Source: Trypanosoma brucei
Lineage: Eukaryota
Assembly (NCBI GenBank): GCA_000002445.1
Contig: CP000068.1
Location: 288,001 to 352,000 of the forward strand
Direction: 5' to 3'
Length of the DNA: 64,000 nucleotides
Of the stretch, positions 2,761 through 19,330 are shown one piece after another. Every line of letters begins with the position of its first letter. The first letter of the stretch is position 1. Position numbers and translations under genes: made by a program. The notes under the pieces are model-generated. The model saw only the letters and a list, made by a program, of their open reading frames with translations. It made no database searches and was not told where the DNA came from.

Positions 2761-3264
2761 AGTGCAATATGCAGCCGAAGCTGTTGTTTGTCGTTTTTAA
2801 CTAGCGCCAGAAGTGCTTGGTCTAACACGGTTAATAAAAAGAGTGATAAGCAAACAGTGTTAATTACAAAAAAAAAATAATGGTTAGTTCGTCGTGTGGT
2901 GTGCTTGATTCCAAGCGCCATTATGGAGCATCATCACTGTATAGAGTGAATGTTTGCGGTGGCGATATTCCATTAGCTTTGCTTCTTTTGCTCTGATTCA
3001 ATCTCTTGTGGACTTCTTTGCTGTAATGACGCGAAACCTAGAGGGGTTGCAGTGTAATTGGTACATAGAGTACATAGGAGTGTTTCAGAGGAAGCGTGGA
3101 GACCGTAGTAGTGAGCACCCGCACCACTACGAGCGGTAAACCAAGGAGTTAGGCGTTCACGTGTGTATCGGTGGAAAAAAAAGTACCGGCAACCCCAGCC
3201 ATATATAAATAGGCGTAAATCCCATTTGCTGCTATACAAGAGAAGGAAAGGGTGCGTTGCGCCA

Positions 3265-4440
3265 ATGAGCGCCCAGGTGCCCAATCGAGGCGACTCACAA
3301 GACTCAATGGATAATGTCACCCTCACGTCGGAAAGGTTGCTGTGGACGGCACGGACTGTTACCGGTCTCAAACAACCAGCAACGACTGCTGTGAGCGACG
3401 GAAGCGGTTGTGAAACGAGCGGCAGCGGCGCTGCTGGTGGCACTGGAGGGTTGACAGAGCCGACAGATTCTCCTGCAACATCGGAGTGCACTCTAACGTG
3501 GAACTCGCTCATGACGGCGGTGTTCCAGCAGCAGGTGAACGAAATGCGGTCGCAGAGGGCTGCAACCAAGAGAACACGGAGCGACGACCGGGTTTCACAG
3601 GACCGAATTTTCTGTTTAGGTGAGGAAGAGGGAAGAAACTCAATACCGCTGGACGCGCAACGCACCGGCAAATGCCACCGTCTGGACTTAACTCCTTCCA
3701 CTGTGCGTGCCCATGCGCCGCAATCTGCAGGTGGCGAAAGTATGCTCTCACCCGAAGGTGTGCAGCGGCGGCTTTCGCTCCACCTGTTGGGTCGGTTGAG
3801 CAGCTCCCTACCGACCCTTACGGAGCAATCTCCAGTTGCAGCAGTTGCACAAGGCCGCAACTCAACATCATCCATTGCTTCCGTTCCCGGCACCGCAGCT
3901 TCAGCTTCCGCACAGCCCCGACCGCCTACGATAGGGACGCCAACCCCCACACCGTTACGGCGGTACGGCGACCCTTCGTCTCAAATGTCACTTCTTCAGG
4001 ACACGGACCCACCGACGGAGTCACGACCTCTTTTATCTCAGCCCGGACGCTCTATTCCGAGTCCAAGCACACCTCTATGGGCCACACAGGATGAGGCTGG
4101 AGACGAAGGGGTGCTGTTGGATGAACTCGATGGAAATATCATTGCTACCGACGACAACAACAGCAACACTTTGAATGTTGGTAACGACGATGATGATATT
4201 ATTGTGCGAGTGCCGCTGAGACGGCGCCCACTTTCACTGCAAGTGTCTTCATTGCCCTTCATGTCCTTCCCTGATACTGCTGCGGCCCTGCAGGTGCGGG
4301 AAGGTGGGGATCGGCAGCTGGAAGGCCAGGGCCGGTCGGAGGCCGGGCGGCGAATGAGCGTTGAGGAATGGGCCCAGCAGATGAATGAGTTTTTTACTCG
4401 TGTCGATGAGCGAACGCTTCACACGATTTCCATTGACTGA
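3265..4440 (+). CDS. hypothetical Ser/Pro/Thr-rich protein with no recognisable domain
   Basis: The ORF track starts at a GTG (3163); the first ATG is 3265 (MSAQVPN...). The frame is long and unbroken, on the + strand like its neighbours, with a low-complexity composition. Confidence 0.4.
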   Translation: MSAQVPNRGDSQDSMDNVTLTSERLLWTARTVTGLKQPATTAVSDGSGCETSGSGAAGGTGGLTEPTDSPATSECTLTWNSLMTAVFQQQVNEMRSQRAATKRTRSDDRVSQDRIFCLGEEEGRNSIPLDAQRTGKCHRLDLTPSTVRAHAPQSAGGESMLSPEGVQRRLSLHLLGRLSSSLPTLTEQSPVAAVAQGRNSTSSIASVPGTAASASAQPRPPTIGTPTPTPLRRYGDPSSQMSLLQDTDPPTESRPLLSQPGRSIPSPSTPLWATQDEAGDEGVLLDELDGNIIATDDNNSNTLNVGNDDDDIIVRVPLRRRPLSLQVSSLPFMSFPDTAAALQVREGGDRQLEGQGRSEAGRRMSVEEWAQQMNEFFTRVDERTLHTISID

Positions 4441-4565
4441 GCGCCAGCGGCAGCATTCTTGTCAGATGAAGTAGAAGGCTTCACATTTGATGGATATGTC
4501 TGTTGCCGTGGGTGCGGAAAGGAGATCGGTGGACCGTAATCTGGTCATTGCAAAGCAAGTTGCCA

Positions 4566-4597
4566 TCATGTCACATCACATCACATCACATCATATC
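4566..4597. repeat. (ATCAC)n pentanucleotide microsatellite (tcacatcacatcacatcacatcatatca)
   Basis: Read directly from the sequence. Confidence 0.8.
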
Positions 4598-6238
4598 AGT
4601 TTTCAATTATACTTCGGTTGGTGCACATCTGACGTTGGCTGTGATAGTGCGGGTCCTGTTCTCAGGTGGTGGGGTTCACGTAGCACATACAGATAATTAT
4701 ACGAAAAGTAAAAGAAAAAAGCAAAAAGAAGCAGACAGAGAATGCTGGTTTACCGTCTGTGAATACGAAGTTTGGATATGGAGGTGACGCAAGGGGTAGA
4801 GGAAAGGAAGGGAATTCCTCTTTCTCTTTTCCTGTTTAAGGCATGGACACAGCTGACATATCAAAAAAAAAAAAAGAAATTAGATGCAAAAGAGGTGTAC
4901 GATATGCCATTATAGAGTTTTGCAAAGGTAATGCGGGGCGTTATATATATATATATGTGTGTGTGTCGCCGCAGTTTCCACACCTGGTGCCTCGGGGTTG
5001 AACCCCTTCAGATAAGCGGACGTGAGTGGAAATGTGAGACTGCAAATGAGAACTTCACCAGATGTCGCAAACAGTTTCACCCAACCATCCTATATATATA
5101 TATATATATATATATATACGCATGTTGATATATTTATTTATGTGTTCACTTGTGTAACAAAACATGCTGTTTCCCTCCCCCCGTGTATTCAGATAGAGCC
5201 CGGGGAGTATTGCACACTTGTACGAAAAAGGTTTGTGTCTTTGCATTGGCATATACGTATATATATATATATTGTGTCTACTGTCTTCAGCGGGTGATCT
5301 CGCATCTAGATTGTACCTCTGCATCTTATCATTTCACAGCTGCTACGCGAGCACTTTTCCCCTTTTATTGTTGCCGCTATCGTTTTAATGCCTTTTCCCC
5401 CTATTGATATGTCTCTTTACTTCTTTAAAAATAGGAGGGAAGTTTCTTTCGAGGCGTTTCTACAGGGTGAAAAACTGGTCTCATGTTTATGATCGCAACA
5501 TCTCTTTTACTTTGTGTTGTTACTTCTCCAAGTTACCGCTCCGCGGCGCAGCACGTAAAGCGTAACCGTTGAGTGGGAACTTGTGGAAGCAACAAGGCAG
5601 AAAGAATCACCTGCTGCTGACGTCCTGTTGAATTAAATATATCTTTAAGCTCCGACACTGTACCGAGGAATGGAAAGGCCAAACATATCATGATCCCCTT
5701 CGCGCACCTGCAGAAGGGGAGTAGATGTATTTGTTTGGTTCTGTTGTGTTGTGTTGTGTTCTGTGAGGAGTTACTTTTGTGCGGCGGATAGAAGTTGACG
5801 TATTAGGCACACCTACAGGTGATATGGTGTTTTCTGTCCCTTCCCTGTATTAAATAAGGTGGTGTGTTTCCTATTACCTTTCACCTTTCCGAACTTTGTT
5901 TGTTCGCACTGGTTTTCTTCTTTTACGGTTTATTTGTTCTTAACCTTCTGACCTTTCTGGTGCCGCCACTGTGGATTTTTCTTTTGTTCATCTGTTTTTT
6001 CTTCCTTTCCAAAGTTTGTGGCGAGGGGCGTGTGAGTGGGGGAGGGCGCCAAGTAGAGCACAAGCGCACTCCGTACGGGTGCGGCGAATCGCCTCTAATT
6101 CCCTCTTCAGTATTTTTGCCCCACCACTTCATTCGTACACTTAACGGTGGGCGTCTGTGAGTACGAAGGAGGAGAAAGCACATTCAGAACAAAAGCGGGT
6201 GATAATACACCGTAGAGTGTTTGTATATTTGTGGGCAT

Positions 6239-7018
6239 ATGCGCAACCGATTTGTTCGCATCTCATTTTCCTTGGCGCTCCTGATAGCAGCCTTTTTGGC
6301 AGCGAATGCTGGCAGTGCTACCAATGCCGATAATGAAGCGACCGACTACAGCAGCCACCGCTACAAATATCTTGAAATGCTAAAGGAGGCGGATTTGAAG
6401 CAAATGCTGCACGAGAAGGGGGAGGCTTTCCATCACCTGCGGTCGAAGCGGGAACTTATTCTCGCCGTTTTGAAACTCGAAAAGCGTGAGGAGGCACTCC
6501 GCAAGGCTCGGGTAACGGATACCGTGCAACATGAGGTGCGTGTGGAGTACTGCTCCGGATGAGGATACCGGCGGCACTACGAGGAGGTCGCTGAAAGCCT
6601 CCTTCGAAGCTTGCCGCCGGAATTAAGAGAGCAGCAGAAAGGAAAGAAGCCGTTTATCAAGTTTGTTGGAGTTGTGTATTCTGTAGGAGCCTTTCGTGAG
6701 TTCATTGGTAACATTCTTAGCACAGGGTTCCTCGCCTCGATTGCAATTAGTTTTTTTGCCCCATTTTTGAGGGGCGCGCTCCCACCTCACATTGCTGAAT
6801 GGATTGAGCAGCACCGCGGAATGGTCGTGGGAGCGGGATTTATGATGAACATGGTAGCGTCAAGCTTGCTTCAATCTGGTGCCTTTGAGGTATATCTCAA
6901 TGGCTCACTCATCTATTCGAAGCTAGAGACAGGAGCTGTGCCAACTGCGGAGACGCTAGCAGACCACATCCTGCGCCAAATTATCTCTGGTACAGCAGCA
7001 GGAACGAGGACCGCATAA
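6239..7018 (+). CDS. SELT: Selenoprotein T (SelT), a thioredoxin-fold selenoprotein. The in-frame TGA at 6560-6562 is read as selenocysteine in a CxxU motif.
   Basis: ORFs 6221-6562 and 6611-7018 are in the same frame, separated by a single TGA and no other stop. Read through, the translation is ...VRVEYCSGUGYRRHYEEVAESLL..., which matches the human SELENOT redox motif CVSUGYRRVFEEY. Downstream, SGAFEVYLNGSLIYSKLETGAVPTAETLADHIL matches TGAFEITLNDVPVWSKLESGHLPSMQQLVQIL. N-terminal signal peptide (MRNRFVRISFSLALLIAAFLAANAGSA). The real ATG is at 6239; the ORF-track start at 6221 is TTG. Confidence 0.8.
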
Positions 7019-8466
7019 GGAAAGAAAACTGCTCAGGTGAAGGGTGCCACAAACCAACAAAAGCAGTAAATAACAACCCTCACCCTGACCTCCACAGGGG
7101 CGTAATGCAACTGACATGCACAAATGCGCATACATATTCGAACGCACATGTATGCGCGGGTGGTTACGGAGTTCTTATTTCGCGTATGCAGGGTAAGACA
7201 TGCCGTACCGTGGCCACGCGAGAAAACGGGCAACACCACCGGAAAATACCGAGATTGAAGAAGAAATGCAGGTATTAAGGGTCCTCATTTCTATTCATTT
7301 CATTTTTATGGTGCCGAAAGTCGGCTGTTTTTTTTCTTTGGTTCGTAGTTTTCATCCACAAGTACCACTGCGTTCTCTCCATGTTTCTTCATTCCCCCCT
7401 TTTCTGTCTGTGTCGCCTTATTTATATGACGAGGCGGAGGATCAAAACCCGTCTGTGGTGCCTCCCCTTTGAATCTGTTGTCACCTCCCACCCACCCGGC
7501 AACCCGGCCACCTCCCACTTTCCCTTTTTCTTTTTCTTTTTCTTCTTCCTCTACTACAAAACTCCACTTGACTTGTGACTGTTCGGTGTGGAATCTCTAT
7601 GTTGAGGATTGCGGCTGAGCCAATAAAAAAAAAAAAATGAGGAGCATCACGAGTTTGGGGGAATTCGCTGCAGGTGGTGGTAGCGGTGAAGGTCGGTTGC
7701 CGTAATTAGGGCAAGTGTGTGGTGATGGGCGTAACAGACGGACTAGACGGAAGAAACGAAGGGATTTTTTTTTTTTTTTTTTGGGTTTTGAAAAGCGTGG
7801 TGCTTTTTTTTCTTTTGACTTCGACTGTGCGTATGTGCCTTGTTAGTGCGGGTAGCGAGACGGAGGCGGGGAGATGAGTGGAGGGGCTAAAAAGCCAAGG
7901 GAATAAAGAAAGCTGGTAATGTGTTTTATTTTTGAGGAGTGCTGCCGCAAAAAAAAAAAAAGAGATAAAGAAAGCACTTTGCGAAAGAGAAAATTTAATG
8001 ACCTTCTTGAAAAAAAAAGGGAACGAGTGCGTGTCAATAAGAGCAAGTGTGAGGCAGAGAAAAGGGATTAATCAGCAAGGGAAGCAACGAGATAGGTTTG
8101 TACAACACACAAAATAGCCGGTTCAAGCTAGAGTACATCCTCCAAGATGGACTTAAGCCCACTATGTTGTTAGCAAACTGTGTCTGCACCCAAATATGCC
8201 TTTAGCTCAACGCATTTTGTGCCTACTAAAATTAAAGCAGCCAAAATTTACAGTTCCTCCTTCACCGCACAACATTCAAACGATAACAGGATGCCAAAAG
8301 CATTTCTGCACTAACACAATAGCAGAAGCGACAACTAGACCTCCCAAAATGTCCATCGACTCTCATTCCCCATTTCTTTCATAATTCCCCCCCTCCTTAT
8401 ACGTACATGGAGAGTAAGTTAGCTACAAAAGAAATATGTCGACCACCCTGTGATACCGTTGACCCT

Positions 8467-8648
8467 TTCAGCGCAGTGATTCTTATATACTCTGTCCATC
8501 GTGCTTACGATATACGACTTACTTCTGTCCGTCTTTATGGTGAGCTTATTCACGAGTTCGACCCTTGGTTCAATTACCGTGCAACGCAGTACCTCAGCGA
8601 CAACGGGTGGCGTGCTTTTTTCCAATGGTACGACTACATGAGCTGGTA
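8467..8648 (+). pseudogene. Truncated relic of an STT3 coding segment (equivalent to STT3 residues ~61-121) at the 5' boundary of the STT3 array
   Basis: Positions 8467-8648 are near-identical to 9243-9424 inside STT3A (AVILIYSVHRAYDIRLTSVRLYGELIHEFDPWFNYRATQYLSDNGWRAFFQWYDYMSWY). The frame then breaks and runs straight into sequence homologous to the inter-copy spacer (8651 = 11951 = 15251). Confidence 0.65.
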
Positions 8649-9083
8649 CCTGTTTAGTTACTACACAGTCAGTTAACCTTTTTCCCTTCTGCCACTGTGT
8701 CGGGCGCAGGTTGGTGTTCCACTGGTAACACTCCGTCATAACCAGGCGTGCACGTACCCTCACTCCCTGAAATGTGTGACACCGTGGTAAGGCCAACAAT
8801 ATGTCTTATTGAAATACTTTCTGGTAATGATGTTGTTGAATATATGTATTGTTTGTCCCCAACCGTGTTTGTGAATGCTTCATCTCGCTTGTATGCACTC
8901 GACTCTCCTCTTTCCACCACTCTCCCTAATTTGCTCAACAGTTAAGTCTGTTGTTCATAAAAAACTACGAGGAAAATACGGAACCGGAGGGGCTCGTGAC
9001 CGGTGTTGCTCGCTGAGGGAACCGTGTGTGAGCGAAGTCTAATATAATATCCGATTCGTCCTTTGGGCGTTTCTTTCTGCTTA

Positions 9084-11489
9084 ATGACGAAAGGTGGGAA
9101 AGTAGCTGTGACTAAGGGCTCAGCACAGAGTGATGGTGCTGGTGAGGGAGGGATGAGTAAGGCCAAGTCATCCACTACGTTCGTCGCCACTGGCGGTGGT
9201 TCTTTGCCTGCCTGGGCGCTAAAGGCTGTAAGCACGATTGTGAGTGCAGTGATTCTTATATACTCTGTCCATCGTGCTTACGATATACGACTTACTTCTG
9301 TCCGTCTTTATGGTGAGCTTATTCACGAGTTCGACCCTTGGTTCAATTACCGTGCAACGCAGTACCTCAGCGACAACGGGTGGCGTGCTTTTTTCCAATG
9401 GTACGACTACATGAGCTGGTACCCGCTTGGCCGACCGGTGGGCACAACCATCTTCCCCGGAATGCAGCTTACCGGTGTAGCCATTCATCGTGTGCTGGAA
9501 ATGCTCGGGCGAGGTATGTCCATCAACAATATCTGTGTGTACATTCCTGCATGGTTCGGTAGTATTGCCACTGTGTTGGCTGCTCTCATTGCGTACGAAT
9601 CATCTAATTCGCTCAGTGTCATGGCGTTTACTGCGTACTTTTTTTCCATCGTACCTGCACACCTGATGCGATCAATGGCTGGTGAATTTGACAATGAGTG
9701 TGTTGCAATGGCGGCGATGCTTCTGACGTTCTACATGTGGGTACGATCGTTACGCAGCTCAAGTTCGTGGCCCATTGGCGCTTTAGCTGGTGTGGCATAC
9801 GGGTACATGGTGTCCACGTGGGGTGGTTATATTTTCGTGCTGAACATGGTAGCCTTCCACGCTTCTGTATGTGTACTGCTTGATTGGGCTCGTGGGATAT
9901 ACAGCGTCAGTTTGCTGAGGGCGTATTCACTGTTTTTTGTCATTGGCACTGCCCTTGCGATTTGCGTACCGCCAGTGGAGTGGACGCCCTTCCGGTCGCT
10001 GGAGCAACTGACAGCATTGTTTGTCTTCGTTTTCATGTGGGCACTCCACTACTCGGAATACCTGCGTGAGCGTGCCCGAGCGCCCATTCACTCTTCTAAA
10101 GCACTTCAGATCCGTGCCCGCATTTTCATGGGCACCCTCTCCTTGCTGTTGATTGTGGCAAGTTTGCTTGCCCCGTTCGGATTCTTCAAACCTACAGCGT
10201 ACCGCGTCCGTGCGTTGTTCGTGAAACATACGCGTACCGGAAATCCCCTCGTGGATTCTGTGGCTGAGCATCGGCCGACGACTGCCGGGGCGTATCTGCG
10301 CTACTTTCATGTTTGTTACCCTCTTTGGGGGTGCGGTGGGCTCTCTATGTTGGTATTCATGAAAAAGGACCGCTGGCGCGCCATTGTTTTTCTTGCTTCA
10401 CTTTCCACTGTTACGATGTATTTCAGCGCCCGTATGTCGCGATTACTTCTGTTAGCGGGTCCCGCAGCAACGGCTTGCGCCGGCATGTTCATAGGGGGGC
10501 TTTTTGATCTGGCGCTGTCACAGTTTGGTGATTTGCATAGCCCAAAAGATGCCTCCGGCGATTCCGATCCCGCGGGAGGGTCGAAGCGGGCAAAGGGCAA
10601 AGTTGTTAATGAGCCTTCCAAAAGAGCCATCTTTAGTCACCGCTGGTTTCAACGTTTAGTGCAATCGTTGCCCGTCCCGCTACGACGTGGTATCGCGGTT
10701 GTGGTGCTCGTATGTCTCTTCGCCAATCCCATGAGACACTCATTCGAAAAGTCCTGCGAGAAAATGGCACATGCACTTTCATCTCCAAGGATCATTGCCG
10801 TGACTGATCTACCCAATGGAGAGAGAGTCCTCGCCGATGATTACTACGTGTCGTACTTGTGGCTGCGAAACAATACGCCTGAAGATGCCCGTATTCTCTC
10901 ATGGTGGGACTACGGGTATCAAATCACTGGAATTGGCAATCGCACAACCCTTGCGGACGGTAACACATGGAGTCACAAGCACATAGCAACTATTGGGAAG
11001 ATGCTTACATCCCCTGTGAAGGAGTCACATGCTCTTATACGCCATCTCGCTGATTATGTGCTGATATGGGCCGGTGAGGATCGGGGCGATTTACTTAAAT
11101 CGCCACACATGGCTCGGATAGGCAACAGTGTATATCGCGATATGTGTTCAGAAGACGATCCTAGATGCAGGCAGTTCGGCTTTGAGGGAGGTGACCTCAA
11201 TAAGCCTACGCCTATGATGCAGCGGTCCCTATTATACAATCTGCACAGGTTTGGTACGGATGGCGGGAAGACACAACTGGATAAGAACATGTTTCAGCTC
11301 GCCTACGTGTCAAAGTATGGTTTGGTGAAGATCTACAAGGTGGTGAATGTGAGTGAAGAGAGCAAGGCGTGGGTCGCAGACCCAAAGAACCGCGTATGCG
11401 ACCCGCCCGGATCTTGGATATGCGCCGGCCAGTACCCGCCAGCGAAGGAGATCCAAGACATGTTAGCGAAGCGGTTCCATTACGAATGA
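9084..11489 (+). CDS. STT3A: Oligosaccharyltransferase catalytic subunit STT3, copy 1 (STT3A-like). It is shorter than copies 2 and 3 because of an in-frame TGA.
   Basis: The ORF-track start at 9063 is TTG; the ATG is at 9084 (MTKGGKVAV...). Multi-pass transmembrane protein. The conserved WWDYGYQITGIGNRTTLADGNTW motif (the STT3 WWDYG catalytic motif) and the DK-type C-terminal domain are present. A unique central segment (~10290-10850) differs from copies B and C. Confidence 0.9.
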   Translation: MTKGGKVAVTKGSAQSDGAGEGGMSKAKSSTTFVATGGGSLPAWALKAVSTIVSAVILIYSVHRAYDIRLTSVRLYGELIHEFDPWFNYRATQYLSDNGWRAFFQWYDYMSWYPLGRPVGTTIFPGMQLTGVAIHRVLEMLGRGMSINNICVYIPAWFGSIATVLAALIAYESSNSLSVMAFTAYFFSIVPAHLMRSMAGEFDNECVAMAAMLLTFYMWVRSLRSSSSWPIGALAGVAYGYMVSTWGGYIFVLNMVAFHASVCVLLDWARGIYSVSLLRAYSLFFVIGTALAICVPPVEWTPFRSLEQLTALFVFVFMWALHYSEYLRERARAPIHSSKALQIRARIFMGTLSLLLIVASLLAPFGFFKPTAYRVRALFVKHTRTGNPLVDSVAEHRPTTAGAYLRYFHVCYPLWGCGGLSMLVFMKKDRWRAIVFLASLSTVTMYFSARMSRLLLLAGPAATACAGMFIGGLFDLALSQFGDLHSPKDASGDSDPAGGSKRAKGKVVNEPSKRAIFSHRWFQRLVQSLPVPLRRGIAVVVLVCLFANPMRHSFEKSCEKMAHALSSPRIIAVTDLPNGERVLADDYYVSYLWLRNNTPEDARILSWWDYGYQITGIGNRTTLADGNTWSHKHIATIGKMLTSPVKESHALIRHLADYVLIWAGEDRGDLLKSPHMARIGNSVYRDMCSEDDPRCRQFGFEGGDLNKPTPMMQRSLLYNLHRFGTDGGKTQLDKNMFQLAYVSKYGLVKIYKVVNVSEESKAWVADPKNRVCDPPGSWICAGQYPPAKEIQDMLAKRFHYE

Positions 11490-12202
11490 CCACATCGTTT
11501 CAATCGCCGCAATCGAAGTGACGCTTATTATCGTGCGTATATGCGTCAGATGGGTTAGCCCTGTGAAGATAAATTCGATTTGATGTGACAATGAAATAAG
11601 GTATGGGAAAGGGAGAACAAACTGATAAATGATAAGTGAATGAAGTAAAGTAAGGAAGGCTGCCACTATATGCTTTGAGATTTTCATTTAACTTTATGTG
11701 GAAAAGTTTAGTAAATAATATAACCCCTAAGAAAAGTCGATTGTATTGTGAAATTTTTTTGGTGTAAGAGCGTTGGGAAGAGGTACAAGAGTGGTCTACA
11801 TTTTCAGGCGATCTATGGTGACATCGCCGCTTGTGCTCCCGTAAGTGCGTTAGGTGGAGGTGTGCAGGTGTATCAACCTTGAAGGTTGTTCTCGCGCTGC
11901 GTTTTCCATATATAGTAGTTAACTGTGATGCTGCGCATGACTAATTTTTCTGTTTAGTCACTACACAGTCAGTTGACCTTTTTCCTTTCTGCCACTGTGT
12001 CGGGCGCAGGTTGGTGTTCCACTGGTAACACTCCGTCATAACCAGGCGTGCACGTACCCTCACTCCCTGAAATGTGTGACACCGTGGTAAGGCCAACAAT
12101 ATGTCTTATTGAAATACTTTCTGGTAATGATGTTGTTGAATATATGTATTGTTTGTCCCCAACCGTGTTTGTGAATGCTTCATCTCGCTTGTATGCACTC
12201 GA

Positions 12203-12241
12203 CTCTCCTCTTTCCACCACTCTCCCTAATTTGCTCAACAG
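12203..12241 (+). promoter_or_regulatory. Polypyrimidine tract followed by AG (candidate trans-splice acceptor region) upstream of STT3B. Equivalent tracts lie at 8903-8941 and 15503-15541.
   Basis: ctctcctctttccaccactctccctaatttgctcaacag lies about 140 nt upstream of the ATG. It is repeated exactly in each 3300-bp unit. Confidence 0.5.
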
Positions 12242-12383
12242 TTAAGTCTGTTGTTCATAAAAAACTACGAGGAAAATACGGAACCGGAGGGGCTCGTGAC
12301 CGGTGTTGCTCGCTGAGGGAACCGTGTGTGAGCGAAGTCTAATATAATATCCGATTCGTCCTTTGGGCGTTTCTTTCTGCTTA

Positions 12384-14849
12384 ATGACGAAAGGTGGGAA
12401 AGTAGCTGTGACTAAGGGCTCAGCACAGAGTGATGGTGCTGGTGAGGGAGGGATGAGTAAGGCCAAGTCATCCACTACGTTCGTCGCCACTGGCGGTGGT
12501 TCTTTGCCTGCCTGGGCGCTAAAGGCTGTAAGCACGGTTGTGAGTGCAGTGATTCTTATATACTCTGTCCATCGTGCTTACGATATACGACTTACTTCTG
12601 TCCGTCTTTATGGTGAGCTTATTCACGAGTTCGACCCTTGGTTCAATTACCGTGCAACGCAGTACCTCAGCGACAACGGGTGGCGTGCTTTTTTCCAATG
12701 GTACGACTACATGAGCTGGTACCCGCTTGGCCGACCGGTGGGCACAACCATCTTCCCCGGAATGCAGCTTACCGGTGTAGCCATTCATCGTGTGCTGGAA
12801 ATGCTCGGGCGAGGTATGTCCATCAACAATATCTGTGTGTACATTCCTGCATGGTTCGGTAGTATTGCCACTGTGTTGGCTGCTCTCATTGCGTACGAAT
12901 CATCTAATTCGCTCAGTGTCATGGCGTTTACTGCGTACTTTTTTTCCATCGTACCTGCACACCTGATGCGATCAATGGCTGGTGAATTTGACAATGAGTG
13001 TGTTGCAATGGCGGCGATGCTTCTGACGTTCTACATGTGGGTACGATCGTTACGCAGCTCAAGTTCGTGGCCCATTGGCGCTTTAGCTGGTGTGGCATAC
13101 GGGTACATGGTGTCCACGTGGGGTGGTTATATTTTCGTGCTGAACATGGTAGCCTTCCACGCTTCTGTATGTGTACTGCTTGATTGGGCTCGTGGGACAT
13201 ACAGCGTCAGTTTGCTGAGGGCGTATTCACTGTTTTTTGTCATTGGCACTGCCCTTGCGATTTGCGTACCACCAGTGGAGTGGACGCCCTTCCGGTCGCT
13301 GGAGCAACTGACAGCATTGTTTGTCTTCGTTTTCATGTGGGCACTCCACTACTCGGAATACCTGCGTGAGCGTGCCCGAGCGCCCATTCACTCTTCTAAA
13401 GCACTTCAGATCCGTGCCCGCATTTTCATGGGCACCCTCTCCTTGCTGTTGATTGTAGCTATCTACCTATTTTCGACAGGATACTTCAGGCCGTTTTCTT
13501 CTCGTGTCCGTGCGTTGTTCGTGAAACATACGCGTACCGGAAATCCCCTCGTGGATTCTGTGGCTGAGCACCATCCGGCGTCGAATGATGATTTCTTTGG
13601 TTACCTTCATGTATGTTACAACGGCTGGATAATTGGCTTTTTCTTCATGTCCGTGTCGTGCTTTTTCCATTGTACACCGGGAATGTCGTTCCTGCTGTTG
13701 TACTCTATACTTGCGTACTACTTCTCTCTCAAGATGAGTCGTCTGCTGTTACTTTCTGCACCTGTGGCTTCCATACTCACTGGCTATGTTGTGGGATCTA
13801 TTGTTGACCTCGCAGCAGATTGTTTCGCCGCTTCCGGAACAGAGCACGCCGACAGTAAGGAGCATCAAGGGAAAGCCCGTGGTAAGGGACAGAAGGAACA
13901 AATCACTGTCGAGTGTGGGTGCCATAATCCCTTCTACAAATTATGGTGCAATTCATTTTCCTCCCGCCTGGTAGTTGGTAAGTTTTTTGTCGTTGTTGTC
14001 CTTTCCATCTGTGGACCCACATTTCTTGGGTCTAACTTCCGGATATATTCTGAGCAATTCGCAGACAGCATGTCGAGCCCCCAGATTATAATGAGGGCAA
14101 CTGTCGGTGGACGACGAGTTATCTTGGATGATTACTACGTGTCGTACTTGTGGCTGCGAAACAATACGCCTGAAGATGCCCGTATTCTCTCATGGTGGGA
14201 CTACGGGTATCAAATCACTGGAATTGGCAATCGCACAACCCTTGCGGATGGTAACACATGGAATCACGAGCACATAGCAACTATTGGGAAGATGCTTACA
14301 TCCCCTGTGAAGGAGTCACATGCTCTTATACGCCATCTCGCTGATTATGTGCTGATATGGGCCGGTTATGATGGCAGCGATTTACTTAAATCGCCACACA
14401 TGGCTCGGATAGGCAACAGTGTATATCGCGATATATGCTCAGAGGATGATCCGCTGTGTACGCAGTTCGGGTTTTATAGTGGTGACTTCAGTAAACCTAC
14501 GCCTATGATGCAGCGGTCCCTATTATACAATCTGCACAGGTTTGGTACGGATGGCGGGAAGACACAACTGGATAAGAACATGTTTCAGCTCGCCTACGTG
14601 TCAAAGTATGGTTTGGTGAAGATCTACAAGGTGATGAATGTGAGTGAAGAGAGCAAGGCGTGGGTTGCAGACCCAAAGAACCGTAAGTGCGATGCACCTG
14701 GATCTTGGATATGCACCGGCCAGTACCCGCCAGCGAAGGAGATCCAAGACATGTTAGCGAAGAGGATTGACTACGAACAACTCGAGGATTTCAACCGCCG
14801 CAATCGAAGTGACGCTTATTATCGTGCGTATATGCGTCAGATGGGTTAG
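12384..14849 (+). CDS. STT3B: Oligosaccharyltransferase catalytic subunit STT3, copy 2 (STT3B-like)
   Basis: ATG at 12384 (the track start at 12363 is TTG). 821-aa frame with the WWDYGYQ motif. Full-length C-terminus ...AKRIDYEQLEDFNRRNRSDAYYRAYMRQMG. Confidence 0.9.
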   Translation: MTKGGKVAVTKGSAQSDGAGEGGMSKAKSSTTFVATGGGSLPAWALKAVSTVVSAVILIYSVHRAYDIRLTSVRLYGELIHEFDPWFNYRATQYLSDNGWRAFFQWYDYMSWYPLGRPVGTTIFPGMQLTGVAIHRVLEMLGRGMSINNICVYIPAWFGSIATVLAALIAYESSNSLSVMAFTAYFFSIVPAHLMRSMAGEFDNECVAMAAMLLTFYMWVRSLRSSSSWPIGALAGVAYGYMVSTWGGYIFVLNMVAFHASVCVLLDWARGTYSVSLLRAYSLFFVIGTALAICVPPVEWTPFRSLEQLTALFVFVFMWALHYSEYLRERARAPIHSSKALQIRARIFMGTLSLLLIVAIYLFSTGYFRPFSSRVRALFVKHTRTGNPLVDSVAEHHPASNDDFFGYLHVCYNGWIIGFFFMSVSCFFHCTPGMSFLLLYSILAYYFSLKMSRLLLLSAPVASILTGYVVGSIVDLAADCFAASGTEHADSKEHQGKARGKGQKEQITVECGCHNPFYKLWCNSFSSRLVVGKFFVVVVLSICGPTFLGSNFRIYSEQFADSMSSPQIIMRATVGGRRVILDDYYVSYLWLRNNTPEDARILSWWDYGYQITGIGNRTTLADGNTWNHEHIATIGKMLTSPVKESHALIRHLADYVLIWAGYDGSDLLKSPHMARIGNSVYRDICSEDDPLCTQFGFYSGDFSKPTPMMQRSLLYNLHRFGTDGGKTQLDKNMFQLAYVSKYGLVKIYKVMNVSEESKAWVADPKNRKCDAPGSWICTGQYPPAKEIQDMLAKRIDYEQLEDFNRRNRSDAYYRAYMRQMG

Positions 14850-15683
14850 CCCTGTGAAGATAAATTCGATTTGATGTGACAATGAAATAAGGTATGGGAA
14901 AGGGAGAACAAACTGATAAATGATAAGTGAATGAAGTAAAGTAAGGAAGGCTGCCACTATATGCTTTGAGATTTTCATTTAACTATGTTATGCTGTTGTT
15001 AGGGGTTAGAATCTTTTTTCTTGGTTGCCAATTAGGTATGCATTTCTTTGTATTGGAGAATGTGAGGTAATCTTTTGGGGAGTGACAGCGTTTGGTACAT
15101 TTATCAGGCGATCTATGGTGACATCGCCGCTTGTGCTCCCGTAAGTGCGTTAGGTGGAGGTGTGCAGGTGTATCAACCTTGAAGGTTGTTCTCGCGCTGC
15201 GTTTTCCATATATAGTAGTTAACTGTGATGCTGCGCATGACTAATTTTTCTGTTTAGTCACTACACAGTCAGTTAACCTTTTTCCCTTCTGCCACTGTGT
15301 CGGGCGCAGGTTGGTGTTCCACTGGTAACACTCCGTCATAACCAGGCGTGCACGTACCCTCACTCCCTGAAATGTGTGACACCGTGGTAAGGCCAACAAT
15401 ATGTCTTATTGAAATACTTTCTGGTAATGATGTTGTTGAATATATGTATTGTTTGTCCCCAACCGTGTTTGTGAATGCTTCATCTCGCTTGTATGCACTC
15501 GACTCTCCTCTTTCCACCACTCTCCCTAATTTGCTCAACAGTTAAGTCTGTTGTTCATAAAAAACTACGAGGAAAATACGGAACCGGAGGGGCTCGTGAC
15601 CGGTGTTGCTCGCTGAGGGAACCGTGTGTGAGCGAAGTCTAATATAATATCCGATTCGTCCTTTGGGCGTTTCTTTCTGCTTA

Positions 15684-18149
15684 ATGACGAAAGGTGGGAA
15701 AGTAGCTGTGACTAAGGGCTCAGCACAGAGTGATGGTGCTGGTGAGGGAGGGATGAGTAAGGCCAAGTCATCCACTACGTTCGTCGCCACTGGCGGTGGT
15801 TCTTTGCCTGCCTGGGCGCTAAAGGCTGTAAGCACGGTTGTGAGTGCAGTGATTCTTATATACTCTGTCCATCGTGCTTACGATATACGACTTACTTCTG
15901 TCCGTCTTTATGGTGAGCTTATTCACGAGTTCGACCCTTGGTTCAATTACCGTGCAACGCAGTACCTCAGCGACAACGGGTGGCGTGCTTTTTTCCAATG
16001 GTACGACTACATGAGCTGGTACCCGCTTGGCCGACCGGTGGGCACAACCATCTTCCCCGGAATGCAGCTTACCGGTGTAGCCATTCATCGTGTGCTGGAA
16101 ATGCTCGGGCGAGGTATGTCCATCAACAATATCTGTGTGTACATTCCTGCATGGTTCGGTAGTATTGCCACTGTGTTGGCTGCTCTCATTGCGTACGAGT
16201 CATCTAATTCGCTCAGTGTCATGGCGTTTACTGCGTACTTTTTTTCCATCGTACCTGCACACCTGATGCGATCAATGGCTGGTGAATTTGACAATGAGTG
16301 TGTTGCAATGGCGGCGATGCTTCTGACGTTCTACATGTGGGTACGATCGTTACGCAGCTCAAGTTCGTGGCCCATTGGCGCTTTAGCTGGTGTGGCATAC
16401 GGGTACATGGTGTCCACGTGGGGTGGTTATATTTTCGTGCTGAACATGGTAGCCTTCCACGCTTCTGTATGTGTACTGCTTGATTGGGCTCGTGGGACAT
16501 ACAGCGTCAGTTTGCTGAGGGCGTATTCACTGTTTTTTGTCATTGGCACTGCCCTTGCGATTTGCGTACCACCAGTGGAGTGGACGCCCTTCCGGTCGCT
16601 GGAGCAACTGACAGCATTGTTTGTCTTCGTTTTCATGTGGGCACTCCACTACTCGGAATACCTGCGTGAGCGTGCCCGAGCGCCCATTCACTCTTCTAAA
16701 GCACTTCAGATCCGTGCCCGCATTTTCATGGGCACCCTCTCCTTGCTGTTGATTGTGGCTATCTACCTATTTTCGACAGGATACTTCAGGTCGTTTTCTT
16801 CTCGTGTCCGTGCGTTGTTCGTGAAACATACGCGTACCGGAAATCCCCTCGTGGATTCTGTGGCTGAGCATCGGCCGACGACTGCCGGGGCCTTCCTACG
16901 TCATCTTCATGTGTGTTACAACGGCTGGATAATTGGCTTTTTCTTCATGTCCGTGTCGTGCTTTTTCCATTGTACACCGGGAATGTCGTTCCTGCTGTTG
17001 TACTCTATACTTGCGTACTACTTCTCTCTCAAGATGAGTCGTCTGCTGTTACTTTCTGCACCTGTGGCTTCCATACTCACTGGCTATGTTGTGGGATCTA
17101 TTGTTGACCTCGCAGCAGATTGTTTCGCCGCTTCCGGAACAGAGCACGCCGACAGTAAGGAGCATCAAGGGAAAGCCCGTGGTAAGGGACAAAAGAGACA
17201 AATCACTGTCGAGTGTGGGTGCCATAATCCCTTCTACAAATTATGGTGCAATTCATTTTCCTCCCGCCTGGTAGTTGGTAAGTTTTTTGTCGTTGTTGTC
17301 CTTTCCATCTGTGGACCCACATTTCTTGGGTCTGAGTTTAGGGCTCATTGCGAACGTTTCTCCGTAAGTGTTGCTAATCCGCGTATTATATCGAGTATTA
17401 GGCACTCCGGTAAGTTGGTTCTTGCCGATGATTACTACGTGTCGTACTTGTGGCTGCGAAACAATACGCCTGAAGATGCCCGTATTCTCTCATGGTGGGA
17501 CTACGGGTATCAAATCACTGGAATTGGCAATCGCACAACCCTTGCGGACGGTAACACATGGAATCACGAGCACATAGCAACTATTGGGAAGATGCTTACA
17601 TCCCCTGTGAAGGAGTCACATGCTCTTATACGCCATCTCGCTGATTATGTGCTGATATGGGCCGGTGAGGATCGGGGCGATTTACGTAAGTCACGGCATA
17701 TGGCTCGGATAGGCAACAGTGTATATCGCGATATGTGTTCAGAAGACGATCCGCTGTGTACGCAGTTCGGGTTTTATAGTGGTGACTTCAATAAACCTAC
17801 GCCTATGATGCAGCGGTCCCTATTATACAATCTGCACAGGTTTGGTACGGATGGCGGGAAGACACAACTGGATAAGAACATGTTTCAGCTCGCCTACGTG
17901 TCAAAGTATGGTTTGGTGAAGATCTACAAGGTGATGAATGTGAGTGAAGAGAGCAAGGCGTGGGTTGCAGACCCAAAGAACCGTAAGTGCGATGCACCTG
18001 GATCTTGGATATGCGCCGGCCAGTACCCGCCAGCGAAGGAGATCCAAGACATGTTAGCGAAGAGGATTGACTACGAACAACTCGAGGATTTCAATCGCCG
18101 CAATCGAAGTGACGCTTATTATCGTGCGTATATGCGTCAGATGGGTTAG
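15684..18149 (+). CDS. STT3C: Oligosaccharyltransferase catalytic subunit STT3, copy 3 (STT3C-like). It is a mosaic of A-like and B-like segments.
   Basis: ATG at 15684. The N-terminal 370 aa are identical to B. Segment AEHRPTTAGA matches A, the following YNGWIIGFFFMSVSCFFHC... matches B, and there is a unique stretch SEFRAHCERFSVSVANPRIISSIRHSGKLV. The WWDYGYQ motif is present. Confidence 0.9.
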   Translation: MTKGGKVAVTKGSAQSDGAGEGGMSKAKSSTTFVATGGGSLPAWALKAVSTVVSAVILIYSVHRAYDIRLTSVRLYGELIHEFDPWFNYRATQYLSDNGWRAFFQWYDYMSWYPLGRPVGTTIFPGMQLTGVAIHRVLEMLGRGMSINNICVYIPAWFGSIATVLAALIAYESSNSLSVMAFTAYFFSIVPAHLMRSMAGEFDNECVAMAAMLLTFYMWVRSLRSSSSWPIGALAGVAYGYMVSTWGGYIFVLNMVAFHASVCVLLDWARGTYSVSLLRAYSLFFVIGTALAICVPPVEWTPFRSLEQLTALFVFVFMWALHYSEYLRERARAPIHSSKALQIRARIFMGTLSLLLIVAIYLFSTGYFRSFSSRVRALFVKHTRTGNPLVDSVAEHRPTTAGAFLRHLHVCYNGWIIGFFFMSVSCFFHCTPGMSFLLLYSILAYYFSLKMSRLLLLSAPVASILTGYVVGSIVDLAADCFAASGTEHADSKEHQGKARGKGQKRQITVECGCHNPFYKLWCNSFSSRLVVGKFFVVVVLSICGPTFLGSEFRAHCERFSVSVANPRIISSIRHSGKLVLADDYYVSYLWLRNNTPEDARILSWWDYGYQITGIGNRTTLADGNTWNHEHIATIGKMLTSPVKESHALIRHLADYVLIWAGEDRGDLRKSRHMARIGNSVYRDMCSEDDPLCTQFGFYSGDFNKPTPMMQRSLLYNLHRFGTDGGKTQLDKNMFQLAYVSKYGLVKIYKVMNVSEESKAWVADPKNRKCDAPGSWICAGQYPPAKEIQDMLAKRIDYEQLEDFNRRNRSDAYYRAYMRQMG

Positions 18150-19205
18150 CCCTGTGAAGATAAATTCGATTTGATGTGACAATGAAATAAGGTATGGGAA
18201 AGGGAGAACAAACTGATAAATGACAAGTGAATGAAGTAAAGTAAGGAAGGCTGCCACTATATGCTTTGAGATTTTCATTTAACTATGTTATGCTGTTGTT
18301 AGGGGTTAGAATCTTTTTTCTTGGTTGCCAATTATGTATACATTTATTTTGTGGTTGTTGTTTTTCTTTTTAATATTTTTAGTCTTTTTTCTTCGGTGAC
18401 GTTATTTGTTCGTATTAAATATGTTTGTTGTGCTGGATTCTTGTGGTTTGTGCTACTGTTGCCTGCTACACTTTGTTCATGTTTATTCTTTGTACTTGCA
18501 TTTGCGTACGCATTGATGCATGCATATTTACATGTGTTTGTATATGTTTTTTTTCTAGGTCGTATTTGTTTGTCTGAATGCTTGTGTCTGCTTTGTTTTT
18601 AGTTCTCTCTGTTCTGTTGATTCGAGAGGACTCTGATTTGGCTTCCGCACATCTGATGGTACCTTGTGTTTGTGCTTGTGGAGGTTGCGTATTTACTAGT
18701 GGCATTATCCTTACCCATGTTTCCGTCTTTGAAGTTTACTTACGCTTACTCCTGTGTACCGCTGTATGTGCGGTTGATTTCGAGTCTCTTTTTCAAAAAA
18801 AATTCTGTTATTTTTATTGGTTTCGTTTGGACCATGTGCGAACGAATTGTCATTATCGGCTCCCTTTCCATCTTTTTTTCCGGTTGTTTTGCGCAGTTGT
18901 TAAGCTAATTGTTTTCTTTTAGACTATTTTTTCCCGTGTTGTTAACTTCTGCTATGTTACTTTAACTTCGTGAAGTGTTTCGACTCGAGCGAGAACACCG
19001 TCCGTTTTGACTGCGCATCGAAGTGAATTAAAACATGCATGCAGATGTACTTATGTCCATATCGACACGTATTTAGGGCCTGGTTGTTTAACATGCTCTT
19101 CCCTTTTAGCTATTTATTTTTTCTGCGTATTTCCTCGGTTGCGCCTCAACGCTAGGATCCCTCTAATGTCACGTCTTATCCGCATTTGTGTTCTTTTCTC
19201 GTTAC

Positions 19206-19262
19206 CTGTACACCTACCTTTATTTTCATTTTATCGCATCTTTTCCCCCTTCTCTTTTTTTG
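19206..19262 (+). promoter_or_regulatory. Polypyrimidine tract followed by AG (candidate trans-splice acceptor) for the rhodanese gene
   Basis: A run of about 55 nt of C/T followed by AG dinucleotides, about 65 nt upstream of ATG 19331. Confidence 0.45.
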
Positions 19263-19330
19263 GAGAAGTAGCTTATAGCGGGGAGGTCTCTTTTCCTTCC
19301 TTATTCGATTACACTTCTTCCATTCTCCCG

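What the first reader, a model, noticed from the sequence alone, without database searches (positions are those of the whole stretch)
10290..10850. Paralogue-specific variable cassette in the STT3 central region, equivalent to 13590-14150 and 16890-17450
Between the conserved blocks ...PLVDSVAEH and ...DDYYVSYLWLRNNTPEDAR, each copy carries a different sequence. A has YLRYFHVCYPLWGCGGLSMLVFMKKDRWRAIVF...HSFEKSCEKMAHALSSPRIIAVTDLPNGERV. B has DFFGYLHVCYNGWIIGFFFMSVSCFFHC...SNFRIYSEQFADSMSSPQIIMRATVGGRRV. C is B-like followed by a unique tail. This is the TM11-13 / start of the lumenal domain, where peptide-acceptor contacts are made in STT3/PglB/AglB. It is a localised hypervariable module in an otherwise homogenised array, which suggests diversifying selection on substrate specificity set against conversion elsewhere.
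Basis: partly seen in the sequence, partly recalled or inferred. Interest (0 to 1): 0.6.

Follow-up and report, generated by a model that had tools for sequence, protein, structure and literature searches.

The report
Known specificity cassette of trypanosome STT3 paralogues
The flagged segment is the long-known paralogue-specific middle part of the three tandem Trypanosoma brucei oligosaccharyltransferase genes (TbSTT3A/B/C); it is an ancient, conserved difference that survives while gene conversion keeps the rest of the genes almost identical, not a fast-evolving hypervariable patch.

Summary
Three tandem STT3 genes (ATG 9084, 12384, 15684) are about 99-100% identical except for a central in-frame cassette: A 10272-10835, B 13572-14126, C 16872-17426. 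The frameshift or sequencing-error alternative is refuted. The locus is the T. brucei chromosome 5 TbSTT3A/B/C array: the published paralogue-specific RNAi primers map exactly inside the flagged interval. The cassette encodes the C-terminal end of loop EL5, TM10-13, a disordered cytosolic loop and the first lumenal helix and hairpin. Its link to acceptor specificity, and the proposed domain swaps, are already published (2009, 2017).

The "hypervariable / diversifying selection" reading is not supported. Synonymous sites in the cassette are saturated (pS 0.78-0.95, against 0.004-0.008 in the 5' flank), and pN is below pS. The A and C cassettes differ by only 1-2 residues between T. brucei subspecies. 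The A-type and B-type cassettes have orthologues in T. vivax, T. melophagium/theileri and T. cruzi. In those species, and in Leishmaniinae, the paralogues show the same mosaic with the same boundaries.

So the cassette is an old functional divergence kept as an island inside a gene that otherwise evolves in concert. C is a patchwork: codons 396-403 are A-derived and include R397. I found no description of the cross-species pattern in the papers I could search.

The parts
9084..11489 (+). TbSTT3A coding sequence (801 aa, stop TGA 11487-11489). The TTG at 9063 given by the ORF list is not the real start.
   Evidence: the published Tb927.5.890 RNAi primers match at 10319-10334 and 10799-10817
12384..14849 (+). 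TbSTT3B coding sequence (821 aa)
   Evidence: the published Tb927.5.900 primers match at 13587-13605 and 14037-14054
15684..18149 (+). TbSTT3C coding sequence (821 aa), a mosaic of B-like, A-like and unique tracts
10272..10835 (+). A-type cassette, codons 397-584. It encodes the C-terminal end of EL5 (397-410), TM10 (411-424), TM11 (428-450), TM12 (452-485), a disordered cytosolic loop (486-516), TM13 (531-546), and the first lumenal helix and beta-hairpin (549-584).
   Evidence: limits; secondary structure from the AlphaFold model; STT3 fold match
13572..14126 (+). B-type cassette (185 aa; H397, G406, Q567)
   Evidence: these residues are named in PMC5724017
16872..17426 (+). C cassette: an A-derived 5' edge, a B-identical core and a unique 3' tail
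16871..16891 (+). Short A-derived tract in C, equal to A 10271-10291 (14 of 14 informative nucleotides). It carries R397 and the TTAGA motif. R406 lies just beyond it, in a mixed stretch.
   Evidence: R397 is conserved in all A-type cassettes of other trypanosomes. It is the published acceptor-specificity determinant.
17334..17426 (+). C-specific 3' tail of the cassette (first lumenal helix and hairpin). All three copies differ here (A 10740-10835, B 14034-14126). Synonymous sites are saturated in all three comparisons.
10155..10205 (+). Small A-specific patch (codons 358-374; end of TM9 and start of EL5). It is separated from the cassette by 21 invariant codons (RVRALFVKHTRTGNPLVDSVAE).
11076..11204 (+). 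Short patches in the lumenal domain with alternating affinities: 11076-11085 B-specific, 11095-11108 C-specific, 11144-11156 B-specific, 11162-11204 mostly A-specific. They look like footprints of short conversion tracts.
8650..10270 (+). Homogenised 5' block (upstream intergenic region plus codons 1-395). It is 98% identical to 11950-13570 and 15250-16870, and the identity includes the A-specific patch.
10836..11693 (+). Homogenised 3' block (lumenal domain plus the proximal 3'UTR). It is about 94% identical to 14127-14984 and 17418-18284.

Best explanation
The window holds the Trypanosoma brucei chromosome 5 array TbSTT3A-TbSTT3B-TbSTT3C, which encodes single-subunit oligosaccharyltransferases. 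The flagged segment is the paralogue-specific functional module of these enzymes.

An old duplication produced an A-type and a B-type STT3. Since then, gene conversion between the tandem copies has repeatedly erased divergence in TM1-9, most of EL5, the catalytic lumenal domain and the flanking intergenic DNA. The central cassette has stayed divergent. It encodes the EL5 C-terminal end, TM10-13, a cytosolic loop and the first lumenal helix and hairpin.

Two things probably protect the cassette (inferred). Converted variants would lose a needed specificity, and the cassettes are now too dissimilar (no detectable nucleotide homology) to support heteroduplex formation. Conversion tracts therefore stop at the invariant SVAEH and DDYY motifs.

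Functionally, by published experiments and not shown here, A-type enzymes prefer Man5GlcNAc2 donors and sequons in acidic contexts, and B-type enzymes prefer Man9GlcNAc2 and accept nearly any sequon. The 5' edge of the cassette (R397/R406 in A and C, H397/G406 in B) sets acceptor preference. The TM10-13 core plausibly sets donor (LLO) preference, because TM11 lines the LLO pocket in solved OSTs (inferred). TbSTT3C is a conversion mosaic: a B core with a 21-87 nt A-derived tract that brings in R397.
For: Identity of the locus:
- STT3 Pfam hits.
- AlphaFold model with pTM 0.84, matching human and yeast STT3 at target-normalised TM-score about 0.8.
- 99% identity to T. b. rhodesiense STT3A.
- Exact matches of the four published Tb927.5.890/.900 RNAi primers, whose amplicons lie inside the cassette.
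- B/C 95.1% and A/B 79.9% identity, against the published 95% and 79%.
- R397/R406 in A and C against H397/G406 in B, as published.

Conversion against age:
- pS is 0.004-0.008 in codons 1-357 and 0.78-0.95 in the cassette, with pN 0.39-0.55.
- The same contrast holds in T. melophagium (flanks 0.000-0.013, cassette 0.70). In T. vivax the 5' flank is 0.000-0.005, the 3' flank 0.137 and the cassette 0.875.
- The same island boundaries (about aa 392-397 to 586-591) are seen in T. brucei, T. vivax, T. melophagium, T. cruzi and L. major. Two further pairs share the 5' boundary but differ at the 3' end (L. donovani to about 565, Leptomonas to about 606).

Orthology of cassette types:
- Flanks group by species at 98-100% NJ bootstrap, apart from the L. 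major pair in the N-flank tree (52%) and the L. donovani pair (90%).
- Cassettes group by type: A-type clade 76-87%, B/C + T. congolense + T. vivax-2 94-97%.
- There are 18 type-diagnostic sites against 2 lineage-diagnostic sites in the cassette. In the flanks the counts are 0 against 31 and 0 against 9.

Other evidence:
- Patchwork of C.
- Recombinant B/C chimeras arise in the laboratory under lectin selection (PMC4351956).
- Function: PMC2722254, PMC5724017, PMC12796225.
- TM10/11/13 contact Ost3, and TM6/8/11 form the LLO pocket (PMC7226087).
Against: - The phylogenies are neighbour-joining on Poisson distances over 141-184 columns. Raw cassette identity of A to its proposed orthologues (34-38%) is only slightly above A against B (31%). 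The A-type clade therefore rests on bootstrap support (76-87%) and signature residues, not on a large distance margin.
- No A-type copy of T. congolense was recovered, though only one 90%-identity cluster was seen.
- The assignment of donor specificity to TM10-13 is my inference plus my recollection of the abstract of Poljak 2017, a paper I could not read.
- Which factor protects the cassette (selection or a homology barrier) was not separated.
Confidence: 0.85

Rival explanations
1. One reading: a locally hypervariable module driven by recent diversifying (positive) selection on substrate specificity, set against conversion elsewhere.
For: The divergence is sharply localised, and the region does carry specificity determinants. 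The 3' tail, codons 553-584, differs in all three copies.
Against: Positive selection raises dN, not dS. Here synonymous sites are saturated and pN is below pS in every cassette segment. The A cassette differs by 1 residue from T. b. rhodesiense A, and the C cassette by 2 from T. b. gambiense. Type-specific residues are conserved from T. brucei to T. cruzi.
Confidence: 0.07
2. Artefact: the A-specific segment is a frameshifted or misassembled version of the B/C sequence.
For: None found.
Against: Sensitive blastn (word size 7) finds no A-B nucleotide similarity inside the core in any register. Only frame +0 of A is open; the other five frames carry 7-10 stops. Frame +0 aligns in frame to B/C with E values of 1e-47 to 1e-53. 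An independent T. b. rhodesiense protein is 99% identical. The published primers match exactly. The cassette folds into the expected TM10-13 with pLDDT mostly above 84.
Confidence: 0.005
3. Relaxed constraint: because kinetoplastid OSTs lack Ost3/Ost4/DC2-type partners, TM10-13 and the cytosolic loop are free to drift. On this view the island marks neutral divergence that conversion cannot cross, with no functional meaning beyond the few EL5 residues.
For: The loop at 485-516 is disordered (pLDDT below 50) and unalignable between species. In other OSTs TM10, 11 and 13 are partner interfaces. The homology barrier alone could maintain an island once it has formed.
Against: There are 18 type-diagnostic positions conserved across the genus, inside TM10-13 and the first lumenal helix (for example N548-P549, M561, R450 against K450). 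pN is well below pS. Purified A and B enzymes differ in donor preference, which the EL5-edge residues alone are not known to explain.
Confidence: 0.07

Closest known systems
TbSTT3A / TbSTT3B / TbSTT3C of Trypanosoma brucei (Tb927.5.890/.900/.910; Izquierdo et al. 2009 EMBO J, PMC2722254; Jinnelov et al. 2017 JBC, PMC5724017; Poljak et al. 2017 JBC)
   Same: It is this locus. The published primers match exactly, the pairwise identities are the same, and the R397/R406 against H397/G406 residues are the same. The cassette is the 'variable region' used for paralogue-specific RNAi and qPCR, and it is the region swapped in the published chimeras.
   Different: Nothing in the sequence differs. What I add is the evolutionary reading: saturated dS, cassette types shared across species, and the same island in other trypanosomatids.
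Mammalian STT3A/STT3B and yeast Ost3/Ost6 OST isoforms
   Same: There are two catalytic isoforms with a division of labour: one acts first or co-translationally, the other is a generalist. The paralogue-specific surface lies on TM10-13, which is where DC2 (STT3A) or MagT1/TUSC3 (STT3B) or Ost3/6 bind and where TM11 lines the LLO pocket (PMC7226087). Human STT3B also carries an acidic insert in the TM12-TM13 loop, aligned to the trypanosome loop.
   Different: The trypanosome enzymes are reported to work without accessory subunits (PMC9472816; PMC5724017). The specificity is therefore built into the STT3 polypeptide itself. The mammalian paralogues are diverged along their whole length rather than homogenised outside a cassette.
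Partial (mosaic) concerted evolution in tandem gene arrays of T. brucei (Jackson 2007, PMC1855330; T. b. gambiense genome paper, PMC2854126, array 36)
   Same: Tandem duplicates are homogenised by gene conversion, and chimaeric copies mark partial conversion. The paper reports 21 of 47 arrays with chimaeric copies. The STT3 array is listed among the arrays analysed for recombination.
   Different: Here the unconverted island has the same boundaries in most of the trypanosomatid species examined, and its two alleles-in-cis are orthologous across species. I did not find this described in those papers.
PglB R331 / bacterial -2 acidic sequon recognition (Lizak et al. 2011; from memory)
   Same: A basic residue a few positions after the TIXE/SVxE motif at the EL5-TM10 junction is associated with preference for acidic residues near the sequon. 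In TbSTT3A, R397 and R406 lie 2 and 11 residues after E395.
   Different: Positional equivalence was not tested here, because no residue-level structural alignment was available. Treat this as a lead and not a result.

Membership tests
STT3/PglB/AglB oligosaccharyltransferase catalytic subunit | Pfam STT3 N-terminal domain (PF02516) and STT3/PglB core domain (PF21436) above the curated cut-offs | tested here: met
   All three ORFs score 151-158 bits (cut-off 24.5) and about 30 bits (cut-off 23)
STT3/PglB/AglB oligosaccharyltransferase catalytic subunit | 13-TM GT-C fold with a C-terminal mixed alpha/beta lumenal domain | tested here: met
   AlphaFold pTM 0.84. Foldseek top hits are human STT3A/B and yeast Stt3, with E values of 1e-27 to 1e-36 and target TM-score 0.78-0.83.
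STT3/PglB/AglB oligosaccharyltransferase catalytic subunit | Conserved WWDYG motif and the EL5 SVxE (TIXE-type) motif | tested here: met
   SWWDYGYQ and DSVAEH are invariant in A, B and C and align to the human STT3B motifs
STT3/PglB/AglB oligosaccharyltransferase catalytic subunit | Transfers oligosaccharide from a lipid-linked donor to Asn | not testable with these tools
   Published for TbSTT3A and TbSTT3B in vivo and with purified enzyme (PMC2722254, PMC12796225)
T. brucei TbSTT3A/B/C array (Tb927.5.890-910) | Published gene-specific primer sequences present at the right spacing | tested here: met
   STT3A primers at 10319-10334 and 10799-10817 (499 nt; paper says 498). STT3B primers at 13587-13605 and 14037-14054 (468 nt; paper says 467). 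Zero mismatches and unique in the window.
T. brucei TbSTT3A/B/C array (Tb927.5.890-910) | Arg397/Arg406 in A and C, His397/Gly406 and Gln567 in B; B/C about 95% and A about 79% identical | tested here: met
   compared with PMC5724017 and PMC2722254
Concerted evolution with a conversion-resistant island | Near-zero synonymous divergence in flanks against saturated synonymous divergence in the island | tested here: met
   T. brucei pS 0.004-0.008 against 0.78-0.95. T. melophagium flanks 0.000-0.013 against 0.70; T. vivax 5' flank 0.000-0.005 against 0.875, with 3' flank 0.137.
Concerted evolution with a conversion-resistant island | Phylogenetic incongruence: flanks group by species, the island groups by paralogue type | tested here: met
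   (bootstrap 98-100% by species for most pairs in the flanks; 76-97% by type in the cassette). Diagnostic sites 18 against 2 in the cassette, and 0 against 31 and 0 against 9 in the flanks.
Concerted evolution with a conversion-resistant island | Direct observation of recombination between array members | not testable with these tools
   B/C chimeric genes were reported in lectin-resistant lines (PMC4351956, PMC5035034). The mosaic structure of C is indirect evidence.
Hypervariable module under diversifying selection | Excess of nonsynonymous over synonymous change | tested here: not met
   pN (0.39-0.55) is below pS (0.78-0.95) in every cassette segment. dS is saturated, so a ratio cannot be computed, but there is no excess.
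Hypervariable module under diversifying selection | Variation between close relatives or strains | tested here: not met
   One residue differs between this A cassette and T. b. rhodesiense A. Two differ between C and the T. b. gambiense copy.

The most novel reading that the evidence does not exclude
The A-type/B-type cassette split is not a T. brucei adaptation to its VSG coat. It is an ancient feature of trypanosomatids. The same island of divergence, bounded by SVAEH and DDYY, has been held in place in Trypanosoma species and, with a less constant 3' end, in Leishmaniinae, while the rest of the gene is repeatedly homogenised within each species. The A-type signature (R397, YPxW, LAGP, xPR) is a derived state shared with one Leishmaniinae paralogue class, and bodonid outgroups look B-like. 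If so, a dual-OST system (an 'acidic-site / early-donor' enzyme plus a generalist) is ancestral to the group. The STT3 array would then be a clean natural example of selection and/or a homology barrier holding a specificity module against concerted evolution over a very long time. I found no description of this in the papers I could search.
Probability: 0.55. Interest if true: 0.45.

Novelty: already known. Interest (0 to 1): 0.3.

Why it matters
The cassette is the part of a single-polypeptide eukaryotic oligosaccharyltransferase that decides which glycan goes onto which site. This already underlies work on trypanosome surface-coat glycosylation, lectin and pradimicin resistance, and the use of TbSTT3A/B as tools for making defined glycopeptides. 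For the scan itself, the result is a correct re-discovery of a known feature.

The cross-species pattern adds a modest evolutionary point. The specialisation appears to predate the African trypanosomes. The array also shows how a functional module can persist inside genes that are otherwise kept identical by gene conversion. That gives natural 'chimera designs' (the A-type cassettes of T. cruzi, T. vivax and Leishmania) for dissecting donor and acceptor specificity.

Tried and rejected
- Frameshift or sequencing error: rejected.
- dN/dS as a test of positive selection: uninformative as a ratio because dS is saturated. Only pN below pS and the dS contrast could be used.
- Biopython bootstrap NJ timed out. 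A first numpy NJ with the Kimura correction produced NaN distances and meaningless cassette support values (cassette block only). It was redone with Poisson distances.
- Exact-sequence look-up of the A protein in the assembly index found nothing, so the organism was identified from homologues and published primers instead.
- Poljak et al. 2017 (PMC5724018) and Nasab et al. 2008 (PMC2526707) are not in the held library. Statements about them rest on what Jinnelov 2017 says and, where marked, on my memory of the abstract.
- Literature searches for STT3 with gene conversion or concerted evolution found no paper describing the cross-species mosaic. That is absence in a partial library, not proof of novelty.
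- Residue-level mapping of cassette residues to the peptide or LLO sites was not possible, because model coordinates are not exposed. I used secondary structure plus published helix roles.
Full report
**What is there.** The window between about 8.5 and 18.3 kb holds three tandem open reading frames with a 3300-nt period (9063-11489, 12363-14849, 15663-18149). All three match Pfam STT3 (PF02516, 151-158 bits) and the STT3/PglB core domain. The biologically used start is the ATG 21 nt downstream (9084, 12384, 15684). This gives proteins of 801, 821 and 821 aa. That numbering matches a 99%-identical T. brucei rhodesiense STT3A and an 81%-identical T. b. gambiense entry.

An AlphaFold model of copy A (pLDDT 81.7, pTM 0.84) matches human STT3A/STT3B and yeast Stt3, with target-normalised TM-scores of about 0.8. 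The flanking genes are an Rdx-family ORF upstream, then a rhodanese-domain protein and an NADH-fumarate-reductase-like ORF downstream. These are syntenic with the T. melophagium STT3 locus.

The four RNAi primers published for Tb927.5.890 (TbSTT3A) and Tb927.5.900 (TbSTT3B) occur once each, without mismatch, at 10319-10334 / 10799-10817 and 13587-13605 / 14037-14054. The window is therefore the T. brucei chromosome 5 TbSTT3A-B-C array. The flagged interval is exactly the 'variable region' that has been used since 2009 to tell the paralogues apart.

**Check of the observation.** In 60-nt windows the three genes are 98-100% identical up to about 10140 and beyond about 10856. Across 10263-10855, A is only 32-60% identical to B or C. 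B and C are identical until the last 100 nt or so, where they also part.

The codon alignment places the cassette at A 10272-10835 (codons 397-584), B 13572-14126 and C 16872-17426.

Sensitive blastn finds no A/B nucleotide similarity inside the core in any register. Only frame +0 of the A segment is open; the other five frames have 7-10 stops. Frame +0 aligns in frame with B and C (E 1e-47 to 1e-53). The segment is real, in frame and homologous at the protein level (31-35% identity).

**Anatomy.** From the model, the cassette covers these elements:
- the C-terminal end of external loop 5, just after the invariant DSVAEH motif (397-410)
- TM10 (411-424), TM11 (428-450) and TM12 (452-485)
- a disordered, charged cytosolic loop (486-516, pLDDT below 50)
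- a short helix, then TM13 (531-546)
- the first lumenal helix and a beta-hairpin (549-584), ending at the invariant DDYY

The EL5 end is the piece with the published acceptor determinant.

The WWDYG motif lies in the homogenised part.

There is also a small A-specific patch at 10155-10205 (end of TM9 and start of EL5). Several short patches in the lumenal domain have affinities that alternate between copies.

**What the divergence means.** Nei-Gojobori counts give pS of 0.004-0.008 in codons 1-357 and 0.14-0.16 (A against B or C) in the lumenal domain. In every cassette segment pS is 0.78-0.95, which is saturated, and pN is 0.39-0.55. Positive selection on the protein would raise nonsynonymous change but not synonymous change. 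A several-hundred-fold jump in synonymous divergence at a sharp boundary means that the flanks share a very recent common sequence (gene conversion) and the cassette does not.

The cassette is also not variable among close relatives. A differs from the T. b. rhodesiense protein at one cassette residue, and C from the T. b. gambiense copy at two.

**Related sequences.** A search with copy A returned STT3 proteins from many kinetoplastids. Paralogue pairs from T. vivax, T. melophagium, T. cruzi, L. major, L. donovani and Leptomonas pyrrhocoris show the same mosaic. Identity is 97-100% over most of TM2-9 and of the lumenal domain and 10-50% in a central block, although several pairs carry further divergent blocks elsewhere. 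In T. brucei numbering the central block starts at aa 391-397 in every pair. It ends at aa 586-591 in T. brucei, the other Trypanosoma pairs and L. major, at about 565 in L. donovani and at about 606 in Leptomonas.

At the nucleotide level, T. melophagium has flank pS of 0.000-0.013 against a cassette pS of 0.70. T. vivax has a 5'-flank pS of 0.000-0.005, a 3'-flank pS of 0.137 and a cassette pS of 0.875 (loci L002 and L001).

Neighbour-joining trees of the flanks group most paralogue pairs by species with 98-100% bootstrap; the L. major pair is weak in the N-flank tree (52%) and the L. donovani pair reaches 90%. Trees of the cassette never group paralogues by species. They recover three groups:
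- an A-type clade (T. brucei A, T. vivax-1, T. theileri, T. melophagium-1, T. cruzi-1; 76% with the loop, 87% without it)
- a B-type clade (B, C, T. congolense, T. vivax-2; 94-97%)
- a further B-like group in which T. cruzi-2, T. rangeli, T. grayi and T. melophagium-2 cluster at 76% in the smaller data set; the larger one gives 60% for the first three, with T. melophagium-2 joining only the wider B-type clade (54%)

A test that needs no tree gives the same answer. Within the cassette, 18 positions are diagnostic for type and 2 for the Salivaria/Stercoraria split. In the flanks the counts are 0 against 31 and 0 against 9.

With more taxa, the A-type clade joins one Leishmaniinae paralogue class that shares R397, YPxW, LAGP and xPR, at 65% bootstrap. 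Bodonid outgroups carry the B-like states. This deeper step is suggestive only.

**TbSTT3C is a patchwork.** Its affinities change along the gene:
- codons 358-374: B-like
- codons 396-403: identical to A at 14 of 14 informative nucleotides (16871-16891)
- codons 404-552: identical to B
- codons 553-584: unlike either A or B
- codons 665-668 and 687-691: A-like
- codons 693-707: B-like

R397 is conserved in all A-type cassettes of other species, so the short tract at the 5' edge of C is best read as an A-to-C conversion. This fits the published finding that C, like A, favours acidic sequon contexts. It also fits the statement that the region containing Arg397 and Arg406 controls acceptor specificity (PMC5724017 citing Poljak et al. 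2017).

**Mechanism (shown and inferred).**

Shown here:
- the genes are STT3
- the cassette is in frame and old
- the flanks are homogenised
- the mosaic recurs across species, with cassette types that are orthologous

Shown by others:
- TbSTT3A transfers Man5GlcNAc2 preferentially to sequons in acidic surroundings, and TbSTT3B transfers Man9GlcNAc2 to almost any sequon, both in vivo and with purified enzymes (PMC2722254, PMC5724017, PMC12796225)
- chimeras locate acceptor specificity to the R397/R406 region
- recombinant B/C genes arise under lectin selection

Inferred:
- The TM10-13 core tunes donor preference. In solved OSTs, TM11 with TM6 and TM8 lines the LLO pocket, and TM10, 11 and 13 carry the isoform-specific partner Ost3/6, DC2 or MagT1 (PMC7226087). 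My recollection of the Poljak abstract, that a second variable region influences LLO specificity, agrees with this, but I could not read that paper.
- The island persists for two reasons: conversion into it would destroy a needed specialisation, and the lack of nucleotide homology stops heteroduplex extension at the invariant SVAEH and DDYY codons.

**Comparison with what is known, and verdict.** 'Old paralogue divergence retained inside a gene undergoing concerted evolution' fits all the data.

I did not find the cross-species conservation of the island and of its two types described in the searchable literature. That library is incomplete, and the general phenomenon of partial gene conversion in T. 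brucei tandem arrays is well documented. I therefore rate the finding as already known and of modest interest, with a moderately interesting evolutionary side result.

Noticed in passing
window 8470-8650: A 181-nt fragment of an STT3 gene (aa 54-113; 99.4% identical to 9243-9423). It is fused directly to a copy of the upstream intergenic region (8650-9083 = 11950-12383). It is probably the relic of a fourth, deleted array member.
   Followed up: partly
window 11487-11558: TbSTT3A ends at TGA 11487-11489 (…KRFHYE*). An in-frame 'fossil' of the B/C C-terminal tail (FNRRNRSDAYYRAYMRQMG*) follows in its 3'UTR and is 100% identical at the nucleotide level to B/C. Conversion therefore keeps homogenising sequence that A no longer translates.
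   Followed up: partly
window 11694-11796 vs 14985-15095: A segment of roughly 105 nt in the 3'UTR that has no detectable similarity between A and B, embedded in otherwise 99-100% identical intergenic DNA. It is a candidate for the known stage-specific down-regulation of TbSTT3A mRNA.
   Followed up: no
window 9063 / 12363 / 15663: The unit period is exactly 3300 nt twice, although the A cassette is 9 nt longer than the B cassette. The difference is offset within the divergent 3'UTR segment. This is either coincidence or an assembly convention. The A protein is not on record as an exact sequence in the assembly index.
   Followed up: no
L001 (T. vivax, SOPI01000326.1) 1265-21085: Five tandem STT3 genes: one B-type (1265-3583), then four A-type copies. 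At least three of the A-type copies have identical cassettes (the fourth was not compared), and one differs from the others only in the 3' flank (pS 0.13). Copy-number expansion of the A type contrasts with T. brucei.
   Followed up: partly
protein alignment, T. brucei A numbering aa 1-80 and 161-194: In T. melophagium, T. cruzi and Leishmaniinae the paralogues also differ in the N-terminal 80 residues or so (T. melophagium pS 0.78). Leishmaniinae pairs have a second island at about aa 161-194. In T. brucei and T. vivax these regions are homogenised.
   Followed up: no
window 10155-10205 and 11076-11204: There is a small A-specific patch at the TM9/EL5 junction. There are also short lumenal-domain patches whose affinities alternate (B-specific, C-specific, A-specific), consistent with many short conversion tracts.
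   Followed up: partly
window 6611-7018, 19007-20680, 21358-24795: The neighbouring ORFs (Rdx/SelT-like, rhodanese-domain protein, ApbE-fumarate reductase fusion) are in the same order as around the T. melophagium STT3 pair (L002). The array therefore sits at a conserved syntenic position.
   Followed up: partly
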